IMG/VR virus record: IMGVR_UViG_2690316278_000011 | Direction: 5' to 3' (one strand) | Source of the DNA: a virus | Lineage: Duplodnaviria; Heunggongvirae; Uroviricota; Caudoviricetes | Length of the DNA: 6,906 nucleotides | In this document: piece by piece, positions 1 to 6,906 of the stretch | Position numbering within the stretch: position 1 is the stretch's first letter | Layout: every line of letters begins with the position of its first letter | The notes under the pieces: generated by a model | Databases searched by the model: none | Told to the model about the DNA's origin: nothing | Seen by the model: the letters and a program-made list of their open reading frames with translations, nothing else | Position numbers and translations under genes: made by a program

Positions 1-16
1 CGCCTTACCGTAGCGA

Positions 17-175
17 TCAAACTCGGAGCGGGTCGTATTCGTTTCGGTCAGGACATACATGCCGTAAATCTGCCCGACGCCAATTTTTCACATGCCGCCA
101 GCTTTTGTTTTGCTGTAACTGCTGATGCGGCAATGTACGCAGCTCAAAAACAAACATGCCGTAGATCATCATCAT
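17..175 (-). CDS. Short ORF (52 aa) with gpU-like N-terminus; possibly a disrupted tail terminator (gpU) gene
   Basis: Three tandem ATG codons (175-167) preceded by GAGGAG about 8 nt upstream; the first ATG overlaps the T-gene stop (ATGA). Translation MMMIYGMFVFELRTLPHQQLQQNKSWRH... resembles P2 gpU N-termini as I recall them. The ORF stops at 19-17 after 52 codons, while a second frame (87..1, ...KIGVGQIYGMYVLTETNTTRSEFDRYGKA) stays open to the window edge. Confidence 0.4.
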   Translation of the reverse strand: MMMIYGMFVFELRTLPHQQLQQNKSWRHVKNWRRADLRHVCPDRNEYDPLRV

Positions 176-3123
176 GGCCATGACTCCTCAATCTTTATCG
201 TAAAAACTGCCACGNNNNNNNNNNNNNNNNNNNNNNNNNNNNNNNNNNNNNNNNNNNNNNNNNNNNNNNNNNNNNNNNNNNNNNNNNNNNNNNNNNNNNN
301 NNNNNNNNNNNNNNNNNNNNNNNNNNNNNNNNNNNNNNNNNNNNNNNNNNNNNNNNNNNNNNNNNNNNNNNNNNNNNNNNNNNNNNNNNNNNNNNNNNNN
401 NNNNNNNNNNNNNNNNNNNNNNNNNNNNNNNNNNNNNNNNNNNNNNNNNNNNNNNNNNNNNCAGGGACCAGCGCCGGAGGCAGCGGAGCCGGGACCACGG
501 GNNNNNNNNNNNNNNNNNNNNNNNNNNNNNNNNNNNNNNNNNNNNNNNNNNNNNNNNNNNNNNNNNNNNNNNNNNNNNNNNNNNNNNNNNNNNNNNNNNN
601 NNNNNNNNNNNNNNNNNNNNNNNNNNNNNNNNNNNNNNNNNNNNNNNNNNNNNNNNNNNNNNNNNNNNNNNNNNNNNNNNNNNNNNNNNNNNNNNNNNNN
701 NNNNNNNNNNNNNNNNNNNNNNNNNNNNNNNNNNNNNNNNNNNNNNNNNNNNNNNNNNNNNNNNNNNNNNNNNNNNNNNNNNNNNNACAGGCTTCGGCGG
801 ATTGATTTTCGCCAGGTCCCCCTGAAGCAAGGCAACCTTGTCCTGAAGAATGGCCGCACGCTGTGCGTCTNNNNNNNNNNNNNNNNNNNNNNNNNNNNNN
901 NNNNNNNNNNNNNNNNNNNNNNNNNNNNNNNNNNNNNNNNNNNNNNNNNNNNNNNNNNNNNNNNNNNNNNNNNNNNNNNNNNNNNNNNNNNNNNNNNNNN
1001 NNNNNNNNNNNNNNNNNNNNNNNNNNNNNNNNNNNNNNNNNNNNNNNNNNNNNNNNNNNNNNNNNNNNNNNNNNNNNNNNNNNNNNNNNNNNNNNNNNNN
1101 NNAACCAGTTAAAGACCTGAATAATCCCATCGCGCACGACATCAAAAACAGGGCCAAACCGTTCAAAGGTTTCGCGCAACGGGGTCAGCCTTTCCATAAT
1201 CCCGCTGAACACCCCGGCAAAAAATGCCCTGATGGGATCCCAGTATTTCCAGATAAGAACGGCAGCTCCGGCAAGCGCAGCCACGATAAGACTAACCGGA
1301 CTGAACAGCGCCCCGATAGCGCCACCAAGTAAAGAAACGGAACCCGTCACCATTCCCCATAATGCAGGCAGAACCCTGACAACATTCATTGATTCGGTCA
1401 GGAGAGAAAAACCGAGACGCAACGTAGCCAGCTTCCCGTGAAGCACCCCAATAACCAGAGACAACGAACCAACCGTTGCTGTTGTCGCCAGCAGTGCGCC
1501 TCCCGCTATCAGTAACTGGCGCGTCAGTGCCGGGTGGGCCTGCGCCAGCGCCGTCACCTTTGAGACAACCCGCGTGAGCCACTGCGTGACAGAACGCAGC
1601 GGACCGTCAACCAGATCACTGATGCGAATACGCAGACCTTCCCATGCACTGCCGAGTGATTTCAGGTTGCCATCAAGGTTATTGGCCATAACCTTTGCCG
1701 TGCGTTCTGCCTCACCGCGCGCGCCTTCAAGTTCTTTTCTCAGTTTGGCTAAGAAGCCGTCACCTGCCGCATCAACGAGGCCCATAAATGATGTGAAAGC
1801 CTCTTCTCCGGCAATGTCCTTAAAGAACGATACCCGGTCAACCTCCCCGTATTTGCGGGTGGCTTTATAGAGATCGGCCAGCACATTCTCCATCGGGCGC
1901 ATTTTGCCTTTGGCGTCAGCAACTGACACCCCCAGCTCTTTCAGTGCTTCTGCCGCTGCCTTTGGCGGTGATGACAGATTGGCCAGGCTTTTACGCAACG
2001 CTGTACCTGCATCACTCCCCCTGATACCCATCTTCGCCAGCACGCCCGCCATCGCTGCGGCCTGCTCCAGCGATATTCCCAGCTTACCCGCCACCGGACC
2101 TGCATATTTCATGGTTTCGCCCAGTGCGCGAAGGTCAGTGTTGGTACGGGTAAACGCTGCGGTAAGTGTGTCACCGACCCGGTCCATCTGGTCAGCAGAG
2201 AGGCCGAACTGCGTCAGGATATTGGAACCAATATCCGCCGTCTCGCCGAGGTCCATACCGCCAGCCGTTGCCATGCTCAGCACGCCGGGAAGCGCAGCCT
2301 GAATGGCCTGCGGTGTGAAACCAGCCATTGCAAGAAATGCCTGTCCACTGGCGGCATCGCCTGCGGTGAACTGCGTTTCAGAGCCAAGTTTTAACGCCTG
2401 CTCACGCAGCGCCTTAAACTGCGGGCTGTTTTTATCGATTCGCGTCAGTGCCTGAACACGGGACATCTCTTTCCCGAACCCGATAGCGGGCTGCAAAAAA
2501 CGCCCGGCAGCATAGCCGCCCGCTGCCGCCGCACCTGTTGCCAGCGCACCACCTGTTTTCAGTTTTCCCGCTGTTTCCTGCGCGCGTGAATACCGCTCAC
2601 GCGCCTGCGTTACACGCGCAAGCGCCCGCCGTTCGCGTTCAAGCTGGTTGTTGTATTGTCCGGTGCGTCTGATGGCCTGCTGGATGGTGTTATCGCTGCC
2701 TGTCAGGGAAATGCCGTGGCGTTTCAGCTCTCCGCCAAGTTCCCGCATTTTCTGAATTTCCCGTGTGCGCGATTCATTCAGGCGTTCAAGCCGGGTGCTT
2801 AACTGCTGCATCAGCTTTTGTTGTTTTTCGCTGAGCACTGTACCCGTGCGTTGTAACTGATTAAGGGCGTTAAGCTGGCGTCGTGCTTTCACGATGCCCG
2901 CATCCGCTTTACTGACAGCGTCACGGGCGCGCTCAAATGAACGCGCCTGACGCTCGAGATTTTTGATCGCCCCCTGCGTTCGCTGGATGGAGTCACCAAA
3001 CTGCCCCATCAGGCGGCGGGCGTTTTCGGCAGGCCGGGTCAGCCTGTCAACGGCGCTGAAAGCGACCCGGATATCAAGAGTCTTCATTGTCTGCATTCCC
3101 GCTGCGAAGTGCCGCCCGCTCAC
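172..3123 (-). CDS. Phage tail tape measure protein (P2 gpT-like)
   Basis: Long minus-strand ORF, nominally 983 aa. The first 673 residues (3123..1105) are unmasked: coiled-coil-like N-terminal region, TMP core-like segment (...FTAGDAASGQAFLAMAGFTPQAIQAALPGVLSMATAGGMDLGETADIGSNILTQFGL...), then a long hydrophobic stretch (about 1240-1533). Sits directly after E/E' as in P2. Start is ambiguous (GTG 3123, ATG 3096 or ATG 3087). The C-terminal third crosses three N-runs and its frame cannot be verified. Confidence 0.85.
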   Translation of the reverse strand: MSGRHFAAGMQTMKTLDIRVAFSAVDRLTRPAENARRLMGQFGDSIQRTQGAIKNLERQARSFERARDAVSKADAGIVKARRQLNALNQLQRTGTVLSEKQQKLMQQLSTRLERLNESRTREIQKMRELGGELKRHGISLTGSDNTIQQAIRRTGQYNNQLERERRALARVTQARERYSRAQETAGKLKTGGALATGAAAAGGYAAGRFLQPAIGFGKEMSRVQALTRIDKNSPQFKALREQALKLGSETQFTAGDAASGQAFLAMAGFTPQAIQAALPGVLSMATAGGMDLGETADIGSNILTQFGLSADQMDRVGDTLTAAFTRTNTDLRALGETMKYAGPVAGKLGISLEQAAAMAGVLAKMGIRGSDAGTALRKSLANLSSPPKAAAEALKELGVSVADAKGKMRPMENVLADLYKATRKYGEVDRVSFFKDIAGEEAFTSFMGLVDAAGDGFLAKLRKELEGARGEAERTAKVMANNLDGNLKSLGSAWEGLRIRISDLVDGPLRSVTQWLTRVVSKVTALAQAHPALTRQLLIAGGALLATTATVGSLSLVIGVLHGKLATLRLGFSLLTESMNVVRVLPALWGMVTGSVSLLGGAIGALFSPVSLIVAALAGAAVLIWKYWDPIRAFFAGVFSGIMERLTPLRETFERFGPVFDVVRDGIIQVFNWXXXXXXXXXXXXXXXXXXXXXXXXXXXXXXXXXXXXXXXXXXXXXXXXXXXXXXXXXXXXXXXXXXXXXXXXXXXXXXRRTACGHSSGQGCLASGGPGENQSAEACXXXXXXXXXXXXXXXXXXXXXXXXXXXXXXXXXXXXXXXXXXXXXXXXXXXXXXXXXXXXXXXXXXXXXXXXXXXXXXXXXXXXXXXXXXXXXXXPVVPAPLPPALVPXXXXXXXXXXXXXXXXXXXXXXXXXXXXXXXXXXXXXXXXXXXXXXXXXXXXXXXXXXXXXXXXXXXXXXXXXXXXXXXXXXXVAVFTIKIEESWP
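215..461. other. Run of N (masked or unresolved), 247 nt
   Basis: Contiguous n characters inside the tape measure gene. Confidence 1.
502..786. other. Run of N (masked or unresolved), 285 nt
   Basis: Contiguous n characters inside the tape measure gene. Confidence 1.
871..1102. other. Run of N (masked or unresolved), 232 nt
   Basis: Contiguous n characters inside the tape measure gene. Confidence 1.
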
Positions 3124-3603
3124 GCCAGCTAACCACTTCGCCGGGCGTCATCATGAAGATTTCGGCGGGCGACCAGTTAAAAATGGCGGCAATATCCGCC
3201 ACAAAGTCTTCTATGTGCTCAAAGCACACAACCGTGATCAGGCTTCCGTCGCCTGTTCGTTCTTCTCGCCAGAGTCCGCACCGCTCAAAAAATTTACGGC
3301 AACCACACATAACTGAATAAAGTCACGGGATGCCATTTTTTTGATCGTCACTTCATCCAGTCGCGGTGATGTCACGCGTGACAGCAGCGTAAACATGGAT
3401 TCCGCTTTCAAATTCAGCACATCAGACAGCGACAAATCTCGCAGAGATCCAGCCTGCTCAATAGCCCCGGTGATCTCCACATACGTGATTTTTTCGCCGC
3501 CTCGCTCAATTGGTTGGGTAAGTTTTACGCCACGCTCACTGGTTTCTTTCACAGTGTCAGCAACGACCGTGTTTTCGGTATCGATGTTTTTCGTCTCTTT
3601 CAT
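3074..3603 (-). CDS. gpE+E' fusion chaperone made by programmed -1 frameshift (about 176 aa)
   Basis: The -1 frame is open from 3322 to its stop at 3076-3074 and overlaps the gpE frame across T TTT TTG (minus strand, 3292..3286). After the slip the reading continues ERCGLWREERTGDGS...NADNEDS. The E' frame has a stop at 3325-3323 upstream, so E' cannot be an independent long gene. The 3' end overlaps the T start. Confidence 0.7.
3238..3603 (-). CDS. Tail assembly chaperone, gpE-like (zero-frame product)
   Basis: 121-aa ORF between the tube and tape measure genes. ATG at 3603 preceded by AAGGAG with about 7 nt spacing. Contains the slippery heptamer near its 3' end. Confidence 0.8.
   Translation of the reverse strand: MKETKNIDTENTVVADTVKETSERGVKLTQPIERGGEKITYVEITGAIEQAGSLRDLSLSDVLNLKAESMFTLLSRVTSPRLDEVTIKKMASRDFIQLCVVAVNFLSGADSGEKNEQATEA
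3286..3292 (-). other. -1 programmed ribosomal frameshift slippery heptamer T TTT TTG
   Basis: Zero-frame codons AAT TTT TTG (N-F-L of gpE) fit the X XXY YYZ pattern; the -1 frame reads TTT TTT GAG into the E' extension. Both frames are open across the site. Confidence 0.7.
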
Positions 3604-3625
3604 CAGGAAACTCCTTTCAGTCAGA

Positions 3626-3644
3626 GGCGACGCACTGCGCCGCC
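3626..3644 (-). promoter_or_regulatory. GC-rich intercistronic stem-loop between the tube and gpE genes
   Basis: Plus-strand GGCGACGC-ACT-GCGCCGCC: 8-bp stem with one A/C mismatch and a 3-nt loop, inside the 54-nt gap between the FII stop (3658) and the E start (3603). No U-tract follows on the transcribed strand. Confidence 0.35.
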
Positions 3645-3657
3645 TGCATATTACTTA

Positions 3658-4170
3658 TCAGCCAAGCCCGAGCGCGGAACGGATGCGATCGGGCACAATG
3701 TCCCTGCCGTCCTTCCGGTAAATGAAGTTCAGCAGGTCAATCTCCCACAACGGGCGATCGTTAACACTCAGCTTGTAGTAGGTGTTTTTAATGGCGTAAG
3801 TGTGTGATGTGGCTTCGCCCTGTTTGGCTTCCCCCATATCAATTTCCGTCACACGTCCGCGCATTTCGACTTCATACAGGTCGCTTTCAGCGTCGGTGTA
3901 GTATTCACCCGCAAAACGCAGCAGCGTACCGTCAATCGTGCCGCCATACTTAAGGAACAGCTCACGAACTGCGCCCCCCATGACAAAGCTCGCATCAAGC
4001 GCGGAGTCATCCAGGCCGAGATCAATACTTACCGCTCCCATCATGCCACCACCCCGGTAGCTGTCGGTTTTGCGCGTCAGCTTAGGCAGAGTGACGGACG
4101 TCACCTTACCCACTTCGTTTTCACCATCCACAAACAGCGTAAAAAAGCGAAGATGTTTTGGTACAGCCAT
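3658..4170 (-). CDS. Tail tube protein (P2 gpFII-like)
   Basis: 170-aa ORF (MAVPKHLRFFTLFVDGENEVGKVTSVTLPKLTRKTDSYRGGGMMGA...) closely resembling P2 FII as I recall it (...VTLPKLTRK...YRG.GM...). ATG at 4170 preceded by GGGAGG; the start overlaps the sheath stop (TGATG). Confidence 0.9.
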   Translation of the reverse strand: MAVPKHLRFFTLFVDGENEVGKVTSVTLPKLTRKTDSYRGGGMMGAVSIDLGLDDSALDASFVMGGAVRELFLKYGGTIDGTLLRFAGEYYTDAESDLYEVEMRGRVTEIDMGEAKQGEATSHTYAIKNTYYKLSVNDRPLWEIDLLNFIYRKDGRDIVPDRIRSALGLG

Positions 4171-5253
4171 CAGGCACCTCCCAGCACCGCAAATGCGGGA
4201 CCAAAGAATTCATCAGTAAACGACTGGTAAAGCTCCATGTCTTCCAGCGGGGGAACAGGCGTATATTTGTAGCGAATACGCACGCGCCCCTGACGTAAAT
4301 TCGTGGTGCCGTTATCCACCACGTCATACCAGCACGACGCCCCAATCAGTTTCCCGGCAGTAACCAGTGAATCCAGTTTTGCCCTGATGGCACCGATAAC
4401 ATCCTTCACGTTCGCAGGCGTCAGTGGACTGTCGATGGTTTCAAACTGCGCTTCCGCAATTGAATCAGCCAGCACCTGTGCGGTTCGGGTATACACCTCA
4501 AAGATGTAGGCGTTCGTTTCCGGTGTGCGGTTGCCCCAGAAGCGGAACCCGTTGCGACGAATAATGGTCGTGATTTCTTTGTTGTTGAGGCTGTTGGCAT
4601 CACTGTCTTCGGCCTGCAACGACCAGAACACATGCCTGGACATCCCCAGCACATTTTTAACCGGAACGTTGGACAGCGATTTGTGCCAGCCCTGCTCATG
4701 GTCAATGTACGCACGAAGGCCGCACGCATAGGCAGGCGCGGGGAACGTTTCGTTTTTGCCACTTTTCGGGTTGTAGGCGATGAAGTCCGGCCATAAGAGC
4801 ATCACCTCACGTTCGTTGAATTTCTGGCGGTAGGTAATTGCCTCAGCCATCGTGTTACAGTCATGACATGAGGCATACACAAACGCGCGCAGTTTACCCG
4901 CAATCACGCACAGGGATTTTGTCACCGCCTCCGTGTCCAGCTCCGGCGCGGCCAGAATACGCGGACGGTATCCGATGCTTTCATCCTGCTCTGCAACAAG
5001 CAGCGCATACATCCCCGTATAGCTGCCGTCAGATTCAGAACCACCGATAACCAGTTGATCCTGCGTTTTTCCGTCTTCTTCNNNNNNNNNNNNNNNNNNN
5101 NNNNNNNNNNNNNNNNNNNNNNNNNNNNNNCCACGCGAACGACGATCACCTTTGTGCTCACCTGGTCTGCGATGGCCTTAAGCGCACGATAAAGCGTCCC
5201 CGTTGTTCCGCATTTTCCCAGCACGTCATTGACGCGGGGCAGCAGTGTGGGCT
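4170..5253 (-). CDS. Tail sheath protein (P2 gpFI-like), 5'-partial as visible
   Basis: The 280-aa ORF 4170..5012 matches the sheath C-terminal two-thirds (...GFRFWGNRT...YTRTAQV...YKYTPVPPLED...). The same frame stays open upstream of Met-5012 (EEDGKTQDQLVIGGSESDGSYTG-MYALL) up to the 49-N run. Segment 5131..5253 encodes PTLLPRVNDVLGKCGTTGTLYRALKAIADQVSTKVIVVRV, sheath N-terminal-like, but in a different nominal frame. The start codon lies inside the masked 5254-5541 block. Confidence 0.85.
5082..5130. other. Run of N (masked or unresolved), 49 nt
   Basis: Contiguous n characters inside the sheath gene; the sheath-like frames on either side differ by one position. Confidence 1.
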
Positions 5254-5541
5254 NNNNNNNNNNNNNNNNNNNNNNNNNNNNNNNNNNNNNNNNNNNNNNN
5301 NNNNNNNNNNNNNNNNNNNNNNNNNNNNNNNNNNNNNNNNNNNNNNNNNNNNNNNNNNNNNNNNNNNNNNNNNNNNNNNNNNNNNNNNNNNNNNNNNNNN
5401 NNNNNNNNNNNNNNNNNNNNNNNNNNNNNNNNNNNNNNNNNNNNNNNNNNNNNNNNNNNNNNNNNNNNNNNNNNNNNNNNNNNNNNNNNNNNNNNNNNNN
5501 NNNNNNNNNNNNNNNNNNNNNNNNNNNNNNNNNNNNNNNNN
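5254..5541. other. Run of N (masked or unresolved), 288 nt
   Basis: Contiguous n characters covering the sheath start and the region upstream of it. Confidence 1.
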
Positions 5542-5627
5542 CCCCCTCCGCACGCACATGCGACCATGCCACACAGGGAGGGAGCAGATGACCGACACCA
5601 CCATGCAATTGCTCAGTCAGGGCACAG

Positions 5628-5654
5628 NNNNNNNNNNNNNNNNNNNNNNNNNNN
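5628..5654. other. Run of N (masked or unresolved), 27 nt
   Basis: Contiguous n characters immediately upstream of the gpD-like ORF. Confidence 1.
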
Positions 5655-5660
5655 GACCCC

Positions 5661-6725
5661 GTGAAAATGCCGGATTTTGATATTCTCGCGGAGGGTAAAA
5701 CGCTGTCAGGCGTGGCAGAGCGCCTGATGAGCCTGTCACTGACCGACAACCGGGGATTTGAGGCGGACCAGCTCACCATCACGCTGGATGATGCGGATGG
5801 TCAGTTGCAGCTACCGCCACGGGGCGCGCGCCTGACGGTTCTCATTGGCTGGAAGGGAGAACCGCTGACAGAAAAAGGCACTTACATTGTTGATGAAATC
5901 GCTCACGAAGGACCGCCGGACAGGCTGACTGTTTCAGCCAGAAGCGCAGATTTTCGGGCTGAATTTAACGTTAAACGTGAGGTGTCCTGGCATGATGTGA
6001 CCGTTGAGCGTGTGGTATCCGCCATCGCTCATCGGTATGGTCTGAAACCGCAAATCAGCGAAATGCTGATGGATATCGAAATCGACCACGCCGACCAGAC
6101 CGAAGAAAGCGACATGTCCTTCCTTACGCGCATGGCGGAAATGCTGGGCGCAATCACCACGGTAAAAAGCGGTAATCTGTTATTCATCATGCCCGGTGGT
6201 GGCGTGAACGCACAGGGCCAGCCGTTGCCCTCGTTCGCCATCACACGCAGCAGCGGCGATCGCCATCAGTTCCGCATTGCTGACCGCGAAGCGTATACGG
6301 GGGTACGCGCTTACTGGCTTGATCTTAATTACGGGAAAAAGAAAAAAGTCAGCGTGAAACGCCGCAAACCGTCAAAACCAAAAAAGGAGAAAAGCAGCAG
6401 CCGGGAAGGCGACTATATGGAAGGTGCGGAAGGCAACGTGTTTGTGTTACGCAAAACTTATCAGAACGAGCAGGCAGCAAGACGTGCAGCGGCGGCAAAG
6501 TGGCAGCAGCTACAACGCGGAGCCGCATCATTCTCCATCACACTGGCGCATGGACGTGCAGAACTCTACCCCGAAATGCATGGCACGGTAACAGGATTTA
6601 AAAGCGAGATTGATAATCAGGACTGGATTATTGCAAAAGCCGAGCACACCATTGATAACAGCGGCTTTACCACGCAGCTTGAGCTTGAGGCAAAAATCCC
6701 GGAATGGATAGCAGAAACAGAGTGA
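5661..6725 (+). CDS. Tail/baseplate hub protein, P2 gpD-like (late control D family)
   Basis: 354-aa ORF with family hallmarks as I recall them: PDF near the N-terminus, SLTDNRGFEADQL, GW.GEPL, ARSADF, DQTEESD..FLTRMA, IADREAYTGVRAYW. The ORF-finder start is GTG 5661 (ATG at 5667), but the frame is open back into the N-run, so the true start is uncertain. Stop TGA at 6723-6725. Confidence 0.85.
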   Translation: MKMPDFDILAEGKTLSGVAERLMSLSLTDNRGFEADQLTITLDDADGQLQLPPRGARLTVLIGWKGEPLTEKGTYIVDEIAHEGPPDRLTVSARSADFRAEFNVKREVSWHDVTVERVVSAIAHRYGLKPQISEMLMDIEIDHADQTEESDMSFLTRMAEMLGAITTVKSGNLLFIMPGGGVNAQGQPLPSFAITRSSGDRHQFRIADREAYTGVRAYWLDLNYGKKKKVSVKRRKPSKPKKEKSSSREGDYMEGAEGNVFVLRKTYQNEQAARRAAAAKWQQLQRGAASFSITLAHGRAELYPEMHGTVTGFKSEIDNQDWIIAKAEHTIDNSGFTTQLELEAKIPEWIAETE

Positions 6726-6906
6726 GCAACTTAAATGTATTAACTCAGAACGGATCAACACACTCACAACATAGAGTCAATATAGCTGCTCGCTTTGTTC
6801 CAGCAAGGATGCCTATTTCTAAGGAAAAACAGAGCAGAAACATATGGTGTTTTCCTACCTGACATCAGGGGTGGTAGACTGGCCCCCTGAATCTCCAGAC
6901 AACCAG

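What the first reader, a model, noticed from the sequence alone, without database searches (positions are those of the whole stretch)
1..175. gpU-like gene downstream of the tape measure looks disrupted (frame change and probable internal deletion)
A well-signalled start (GAGGAG, three tandem ATGs, ATGA overlap with the T stop) opens an ORF whose first ~28 residues resemble P2 gpU N-termini, but it stops after 52 codons. A different frame (87..1) stays open to the window edge and encodes IGVGQIYGMYV..., which resembles motifs I recall from the middle of gpU (..IG.., GVG, MIYGMYV). The frames switch near an A5 homopolymer (84-88), and the spacing suggests roughly 50 codons of gpU are missing. 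If real, the tail terminator is inactivated, pointing to a degenerate prophage; otherwise it is a homopolymer sequencing error or a novel short ORF.
Basis: partly seen in the sequence, partly recalled or inferred. Interest (0 to 1): 0.5.

Follow-up and report, generated by a model that had tools for sequence, protein, structure and literature searches.

The report
Prophage gpU gene with 158-bp deletion
The P2-type gpU tail gene on this short, gap-ridden draft E. coli-type prophage contig lacks 158 internal bases that every related genome has, so it reads as a broken gene, which is an ordinary decay event or possibly an assembly error.

Summary
The window is the whole 6,906-base record CXCB01000198.1 of draft assembly GCA_001255415.1. 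Its minus strand carries a P2-like tail operon: sheath, tube, E/E', tape measure, gpU.

Window 214..83 and 82..1 are 100% identical to an E. coli prophage whose gpU-family gene is intact (162 aa). The window lacks the 158 bp between them: codons 32-83 plus two bases of codon 84. The frame therefore shifts. The ORF from ATG 175 gives 31 native and 21 out-of-frame residues, then stops at 19..17. Codons 85-111 sit in another frame and run to the contig end. Pfam PF06995 matches profile positions 1-29 in one frame and 79-106 in the other.

The A5 run is unchanged, so this is not a homopolymer error. The breakpoints show no microhomology, repeat or hairpin. The junction is absent from 5,426 complete E. 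coli genomes and from four other collections.

P2 gpU is a tube initiator at the baseplate hub, not a tail terminator. The tape-measure stop is TGA 190..188, not the ATGA overlap.

Without reads I cannot tell a real strain-private deletion (about 0.6) from an unmarked mis-join (about 0.33). The scaffold has six mis-sized N gaps. Ordinary finding, low interest.

The parts
188..3087 (-). Tape measure gene (gpT-like), interrupted by three N-runs (215-461, 502-786, 871-1102). The true stop is TGA at 190..188.
   Evidence: Colinear with the annotated tape measure genes of L001, L002 and L004. Stop frame taken from the identical L001 sequence. Start inferred from the 14-nt overlap with E' in L001. 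Deposited length is 2900, not a multiple of 3, because the N-runs are mis-sized.
184..189 (-). GAGGAG ribosome-binding site for the gpU-family gene, 8 nt before ATG 175. It overlaps the tape-measure stop codon.
   Evidence: Read directly from the sequence. The RefSeq start of the intact orthologue is the same ATG.
83..175 (-). 5' remnant of the gpU-family gene: codons 1-31 (MMMIYGMFVFELRTLPHQQLQQNKSWRHVKN), in the native frame.
   Evidence: 100% identical to L001 4481..4573. Pfam PF06995 profile positions 1-29. Aligns to the P2 gpU N-terminus.
82..83 (-). Deletion junction AAAAAT|TGGCGTC. The 158 bp of the intact gene (L001 4574..4731: codons 32-83 plus 2 nt of codon 84) are absent between these two bases.
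   Evidence: No microhomology, repeat or hairpin at the breakpoints. Junction absent from all collections searched.
17..82 (-). Out-of-frame tail of the truncated ORF (WRRADLRHVCPDRNEYDPLRV, then TGA at 19..17).
   Evidence: The complete 52-aa product is on record on this one contig only.
1..81 (-). 3' remnant of the gpU-family gene: codons 85-111 (GVGQIYGMYVLTETNTTRSEFDRYGKA). It is in a different frame from the start codon and is cut by the contig end.
   Evidence: 100% identical to L001 4733..4813. Pfam PF06995 profile positions 79-106. Aligns to P2 gpU.
3074..3603 (-). Tail assembly chaperone genes E and E+E', with the P2-type slippery heptamer TTTTTTG at 3291..3285.
   Evidence: ORFs. Weak Pfam Phage_TAC_7 match. 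Sequence. 'GpE family' annotation in L001.
3658..4170 (-). Tail tube gene (FII-like), intact, 170 aa.
   Evidence: PF04985. Annotated as tail tube in L001 and L002.
4170..5392 (-). Tail sheath gene (FI-like). Its 5' part is hidden by N-runs 5082-5130 and 5254-5541, so the start coordinate is approximate.
   Evidence: PF04984 and PF17482. Colinear with the 1185-nt sheath genes of L002 and L004.
5588..6725 (+). gpD-like baseplate hub gene, divergent from the sheath gene. As deposited it is split by a spurious 27-N gap at 5628-5654.
   Evidence: PF05954 E = 3.2e-17. Alignment to O111 strain 11128 and to phage Chuche shows that the gap flanks abut. Chuche gpD is 369 aa.

Best explanation
Window 175..1 (minus strand) is the remnant of a P2 gpU-family gene. 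This family is the tail-tube initiator or 'ripcord' protein that sits on the gpD hub and starts tube polymerisation. The gene is the last one in the sheath-tube-E-E'-tape measure-U operon of a P2-like (Peduoviridae-type) prophage of E. coli type.

A blunt 158-bp internal deletion removes codons 32-83 and two bases of codon 84. This takes out Pfam profile positions 30-78, including the conserved GVLYPE.TGG block, and shifts the frame. Translation from the normal RBS and ATG would give a 52-residue peptide: 31 native residues and 21 nonsense residues.

I consider it most likely that the deletion is real in the sequenced DNA, recent, and private to this strain. If so, this prophage copy cannot make functional gpU. 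By inference from the essential role of U in P2 tail assembly, it then cannot build tails unless another P2-like prophage complements it.

Shown: the deletion in the record, its exact extent, and its effect on the frame. Inferred: that it exists in the cell, and the loss-of-function phenotype. The confidence of 0.6 refers to the deletion being real in the genome. That the deposited sequence is a gpU-family gene lacking exactly these 158 bp is essentially certain.
For: - Exact extent: both flanks are 100% identical to the intact gene of NZ_CP065615.1, with 158 bp missing between them.
- The same gap appears against O111 strain 11128.
- Pfam PF06995 is split between two frames (1-29 and 79-106), against 1-120 in the intact orthologue. 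The protein alignment with P2 gpU agrees.
- Synteny directly after the tape measure gene.
- The intact gene is the norm: 1,106 complete E. coli genomes carry a place that covers at least 80% of window 1-215. All listed hits are in two pieces spanning 372 bp.
- The junction 40-mer is found in none of 5,426 genomes.
- For a real deletion rather than an artefact: the breakpoints share no sequence. An overlap-based or k-mer-graph join therefore could not create the junction without reads that span it.
- All gaps that the assembler recognised are marked with N and are over-sized, never under-sized.
- Function: the gpU family is listed as tail tube initiator, equivalent to T4 gp48/gp54. The PDB hit is R2 pyocin PA0626.
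Against: - The record is a poor scaffold. It has seven sequence pieces (40 to 3,979 bases) and six N-runs in 6.9 kb.
- Every N-run is wrong by +28 to +38 positions.
- One N-run is inserted where nothing is missing.
- The junction lies only 82 bases from the contig end.
- There is no microhomology of the kind usual for spontaneous deletions in E. coli.
- Neither the gene nor its neighbours show any further decay.
- The 52-aa product is on record only from this NCBI contig, not from any independent assembly.
- No reads were available.
Confidence: 0.6

Rival explanations
1. Assembly artefact. The gpU gene is intact in the strain. The 158 bp were lost when two short pieces (window 83-214 and 1-82) were joined without N during scaffolding or gap closing. 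This region is fragmented, probably because the genome holds more than one related P2-like prophage.
For: - Six N-runs in 6.9 kb, with islands as short as 40 and 84 bases.
- All N-runs are mis-sized by +28 to +38 positions against three references.
- A 27-N run with a duplicated base sits where the references are contiguous, which breaks the gpD frame.
- The missing stretches in the adjacent tape-measure 3' end are of similar size (204-253 bp) and alternate with short islands, so a 158-bp hole fits the local pattern.
- The junction is blunt, unique, and 82 bases from the contig end.
- The flanks are 100% identical to an intact gene.
- Many E. coli genomes carry 2-3 copies of this module.
Against: Every other gap was marked with N and was over-estimated, not collapsed to zero. 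A join with no shared bases cannot arise from read overlap or a de Bruijn graph. It would need an unusual unmarked concatenation, and I could not point to a pipeline step that does this (inference).
Confidence: 0.33
2. A homopolymer (A5) sequencing error causes the frame change, and the gene is otherwise colinear with gpU.
For: The frame changes right next to the A5 run at 84..88.
Against: The A5 run has the same length in the intact orthologues. The two frames correspond to Pfam profile positions 1-29 and 79-106, so 49 profile positions are absent. The DNA alignment shows a clean 158-bp gap.
Confidence: 0.01
3. The 52-codon ORF is a genuine, complete small protein gene and not a broken gpU.
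For: It has a good RBS and start codon and was called as a gene.
Against: Residues 1-31 are identical to the N-terminus of the 162-aa protein. Residues 32-52 are the out-of-frame reading of gpU codons 84-105. Its RBS and start are simply those of gpU. This exact product occurs on one contig only in the whole gene-position index. Pfam sees nothing in it but the gpU N-terminus.
Confidence: 0.01

Closest known systems
Intact orthologue WP_000979959.1 ('phage tail protein', 162 aa) of the P2-like prophage in E. coli FDAARGOS_943 (NZ_CP065615.1 4481..4969). Near-identical genes occur in phages 503458 (CP025874.1) and Chuche (PP925824.1).
   Same: DNA is 100% identical over window 214..83 and 82..1. 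The RBS, the start codon and the position after the tape measure gene are the same.
   Different: The window lacks 158 bp (codons 32-83 plus 2 nt), so it is out of frame and truncated. The 3' end of the gene lies beyond the contig end.
Bacteriophage P2 gpU (Pfam PF06995, Phage_P2_GpU), the sixth gene of the P2 FI-FII-E-E'-T-U-D tail operon
   Same: Same family: the intact orthologue is 46.5% identical to P2 gpU and matches the Pfam profile 1-120 at E = 7.5e-39. Same position directly after the tape measure gene.
   Different: The copy here is broken. In this phage lineage the FI..U block is inverted relative to D-ogr, so D does not follow U.
R2 pyocin 'ripcord' PA0626 (PDB 6U5B chain h), and T4 gp48/gp54 tube initiators by the literature table
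   Same: The C-terminal domain of PA0626 (residues 159-289) aligns with residues 8-129 of the intact orthologue (E = 2.3e-5). The gpU family is tabulated as tail tube initiator, equivalent to T4 gp48/gp54 (PMC4122934).
   Different: The similarity is distant. PA0626 has an extra N-terminal half. No structure or function was tested here.
Lambda gpU tail terminator
   Same: Only the letter U and a role in tail assembly.
   Different: It is a different family with a different position in the tail. Lambda gpU caps the head-proximal end of the tube (PMC10457771). The Pfam scan of the remnants and of the intact orthologue returned only PF06995.

Membership tests
Phage_P2_GpU (PF06995) | Colinear match to the whole profile in a single frame, above the gathering score (27.5 bits) | tested here: not met
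   The ORF scores 21.9 bits on profile positions 1-29. The other frame scores 20.1 bits on positions 79-106. Positions 30-78 are absent. The intact orthologue scores 132.5 bits on positions 1-120. The window therefore holds a remnant (pseudogene) of a family member, not a functional member.
Phage_P2_GpU (PF06995) | Descent from a family member: nucleotide identity with annotated intact genes | tested here: met
   100% identity over 132 + 82 bases with NZ_CP065615.1. 97.6-97.7% identity with O111 strain 11128.
Phage_P2_GpU (PF06995) | Gene position directly downstream of the tape measure gene in a contractile-tail operon (sheath, tube, E/E', T, U) | tested here: met
   ORF map and Pfam hits of the neighbours. 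Same order in L001, L002 and L004.
Phage_P2_GpU (PF06995) | Function in tail and baseplate assembly (tube initiation on the gpD hub) | not testable with these tools
   Rests on the literature table in PMC4122934, on the pyocin PA0626 homology, and on my own knowledge that P2 U is an essential tail gene.
Lambda gpU-type tail terminator | Sequence match to a tail-terminator family | tested here: not met
   The Pfam scan at E up to 10 returned only PF06995 for the two remnants and for the intact orthologue. The PDB sequence search returned only pyocin PA0626.

The most novel reading that the evidence does not exclude
The deletion is real and retained because it is useful. One version: the 52-residue product, which keeps the first 31 residues of gpU, acts as a dominant-negative fragment. 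It would poison tube initiation of superinfecting or co-resident P2-like phages. Another version: the deletion locks the prophage in place while its cargo genes stay useful. Nothing observed supports selection. The allele is seen once and shows no sign of age.
Probability: 0.02. Interest if true: 0.35.

Novelty: already known. Interest (0 to 1): 0.08.

Why it matters
It matters little. If the deletion is real, one isolate carries a P2-like prophage that lost an essential tail gene very recently. That is a routine first step of prophage decay and would make this prophage copy non-infectious unless complemented. If it is an artefact, it is a cautionary example: in fragmentary short-read scaffolds an unmarked join can mimic a pseudogene. 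The same contig also shows mis-sized N gaps that break the reading frames of neighbouring genes (gpD and the tape measure). Either way, no new biology is implied.

Tried and rejected
- Homopolymer slip at A5: rejected, because the run length is unchanged.
- Complete small protein: rejected.
- Slippage between direct repeats: the only nearby repeat, CGGCATGT, is spaced 191 bp apart. It does not coincide with the breakpoints, and both copies are still present.
- Hairpin-mediated deletion: folding the intact region as DNA gives nothing unusual (z = -0.42), and no stem brackets the breakpoints.
- Search for the same junction elsewhere: none in GTDB representative genomes, complete E. coli genomes, IMG/VR, JGI metagenomes or INPHARED phages.
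- Search for an independent assembly of the same isolate, by exact look-up of the 52-aa, 54-aa and 352-aa products: only the NCBI contig itself was found.
- Search for the assembly accession in the literature: nothing.
- A 2026 P2 cryo-EM preprint that names gpU and 'tube initiator' was listed but could not be opened.
- A search for 'FETUD' brought up nothing I used.
- I did not run the large protein searches or a structure prediction, because the DNA alignment already settles what the sequence is.

Full report
**What the window is.** The window is identical, N-runs included, to the reverse complement of locus L003. L003 is the complete 6,906-base record CXCB01000198.1 of draft assembly GCA_001255415.1. 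The Ns are therefore the depositor's scaffold gaps, and the gpU-like gene runs off the end of the contig.

The minus strand carries a P2-like contractile-tail operon:
- sheath, about 5392..4170
- tube, 4170..3658
- E, 3603..3238
- E', reached through the P2-type slippery heptamer TTTTTTG at 3291..3285
- tape measure, 3087..188
- the gpU-like gene, starting at 175

A gpD-like hub gene lies on the plus strand (5588..6725).

The DNA is of E. coli type. More than 1,300 complete E. coli genomes match the first 215 bases, and about 890 match most of the window. Isolated phage Chuche and phage record 503458 carry the same module in the same order. This shows that the lineage is viable when the module is intact.

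**Checking the observation.**
- GAGGAG at 189..184
- three ATGs at 175..167
- a 52-codon ORF ending at TGA 19..17
- a second frame open to base 1 that reads KIGVGQIYGMYV...
- an A5 run at 84..88

Pfam PF06995 (Phage_P2_GpU) matches the ORF on profile positions 1-29. It matches the second frame on positions 79-106. An intact orthologue matches positions 1-120 at E = 7.5e-39.

**What is really there.** Alignment with E. coli FDAARGOS_943 gives the exact anatomy (L001; intact 162-aa gene at 4481..4969, WP_000979959.1):
- Window 214..83 equals L001 4442..4573 at 100% identity.
- Window 82..1 equals L001 4732..4813 at 100% identity.
- The 158 bases of L001 4574..4731 are absent from the window.

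The left breakpoint falls exactly after codon 31 (AAT, Asn). The deletion removes codons 32-83 and the first two bases of codon 84. Because 158 is not a multiple of three, the frame shifts. Translation from the native start gives 31 native residues, then WRRADLRHVCPDRNEYDPLRV and a stop. Codons 85-111 survive in another frame up to the contig end.

The same 158-bp gap appears against O111:H- strain 11128. The protein alignment with P2 gpU, Chuche and FDAARGOS_943 places the two remnants at the N-terminus and at the G(V/T)G.IYGMYV block. The A5 run has the same length in intact genes, so a homopolymer error is excluded.

1. The tape measure does not end at the ATGA overlap. In the identical sequence of the intact, annotated orthologue it ends ...GSFYDKD* at TGA, window 190..188. 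That is 12 nt before ATG 175, and the GAGGAG overlaps that stop. The deposited tape-measure gene is 2,900 positions long, not a multiple of three, because its N-runs are mis-sized.
2. P2 gpU is not a tail terminator. That is lambda gpU (PMC10457771). The P2 family is tabulated as the tail-tube initiator, equivalent to T4 gp48/gp54 (PMC4122934). The only solved relative found by sequence is the C-terminal domain of R2-pyocin 'ripcord' PA0626 in the baseplate (PDB 6U5B, E = 2.3e-5).

From my own knowledge, U is an essential tail gene of P2. The likely consequence of the lesion is therefore failure of tube initiation on the gpD hub. This is an inference, not something tested here.

**Real deletion or assembly artefact?** This is the only open question, and it cannot be settled without reads.

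The junction AAAAAT|TGGCGTC is blunt. The breakpoints share no bases. No direct repeat brackets them: the nearest, CGGCATGT, is spaced 191 bp apart and both copies are retained. The intact region does not fold unusually (z = -0.42).

The junction is absent from every collection searched:
- 5,426 complete E. coli genomes
- INPHARED phages
- GTDB representative genomes
- IMG/VR
- JGI metagenomes

The 52-aa product is on record from this contig alone.

*In favour of an artefact:*
- The scaffold is poor, with seven pieces of 40 to 3,979 bases and six N-runs.
- Each N-run is 28-38 positions longer than the distance in three independent references.
- One 27-N run, with a duplicated C, sits where the references are contiguous. 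It falsely splits gpD.
- The junction lies 82 bases from the contig end.
- Neither the gene nor its neighbours show any other decay.

*In favour of a real deletion:*
- A junction without shared sequence cannot be produced by overlap or k-mer-graph assembly unless reads span it.
- Every gap that the assembler recognised was marked with N and over-estimated, never collapsed to zero.

I put a real, recent, strain-private deletion at about 0.6. I put an unmarked mis-join at about 0.33. About 0.02 goes to the two refuted alternatives together, and the rest to causes I have not thought of.

**Is the prophage degenerate?** Apart from this lesion there is no evidence for that on the contig. Tube, E and E' have the same lengths as in intact relatives. 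The N-free parts of sheath, tape measure and gpD are open. The apparent truncations of gpD (352-354 aa called, against 369 aa in Chuche) and of the sheath (280 aa called) are caused by N-runs.

**Comparison with the known, and novelty.** The sequence is a remnant of a well-known family (PF06995) in a common, well-annotated E. coli prophage lineage. Pseudogenisation of prophage structural genes is routine, so nothing here is new in kind. I file it as already known, with low interest (0.08).

The most novel reading not excluded is that the truncated N-terminal peptide, or the locked prophage, is selectively retained. I give that about 2%, and no observation supports it.

Noticed in passing
window 215-461, 502-786, 871-1102, 5082-5130, 5254-5541, 5628-5654: All six N-runs are native to the NCBI record. 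Each is 28-38 positions longer than the corresponding distance in three references (FDAARGOS_943, O111 strain 11128, phage Chuche). As deposited, the tape measure, sheath and gpD genes therefore have arbitrary reading frames across the gaps.
   Followed up: yes
window 5588-5700 (+): The 27-N run at 5628-5654 is a spurious gap. Its flanks abut in the references, with one duplicated C. This splits the gpD-like gene, whose true start is the ATG at 5588 (MTDTTMQLLSQGTDPVKMPDFD...). The 352-aa and 354-aa gpD calls are artefacts of this gap.
   Followed up: yes
window 1-6725; L002 and L004: In this prophage lineage the FI-FII-E-E'-T-U block is inverted relative to D-ogr compared with P2, so gpD is transcribed divergently from the sheath gene and U is not followed by D. 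The same order occurs in isolated phage Chuche and in about 890 complete E. coli genomes, so it is a stable and viable architecture.
   Followed up: partly
window 3285-3291 (-): The P2-type -1 frameshift heptamer T_TTT_TTG lies in the zero frame of the 121-aa E ORF and leads into the E' ORF, which ends at 3074. The tail-chaperone frameshift signal is therefore conserved.
   Followed up: partly
window 1103-5081: The N-free core (sheath 3' part, tube, E, E', tape-measure 5' part) is at most 96.1% identical over its full length to any of 5,426 complete E. coli genomes. The gpD flank is 99.7% identical to O111 strains and the gpU flank 100% identical to FDAARGOS_943. This points to a mosaic prophage, or possibly to a consensus blended from two prophage copies in the assembly.
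   Followed up: no
L001 5005-7709 and L002 13161-13733: Downstream of intact gpU the relatives carry different cargo. FDAARGOS_943 has a serine recombinase (invertase-type) next to opposed tail-fibre and assembly genes. O111 strain 11128 has a serine O-acetyltransferase, and Chuche has a glycosyltransferase. What follows gpU in the source strain is unknown, because the contig ends.
   Followed up: no
window 6877-6906: The last 30 bases of the contig, downstream of gpD, are not covered by the otherwise 99.7% identical match to O111 strain 11128. The flank may therefore differ from the PIN-domain and ogr region seen there.
   Followed up: no
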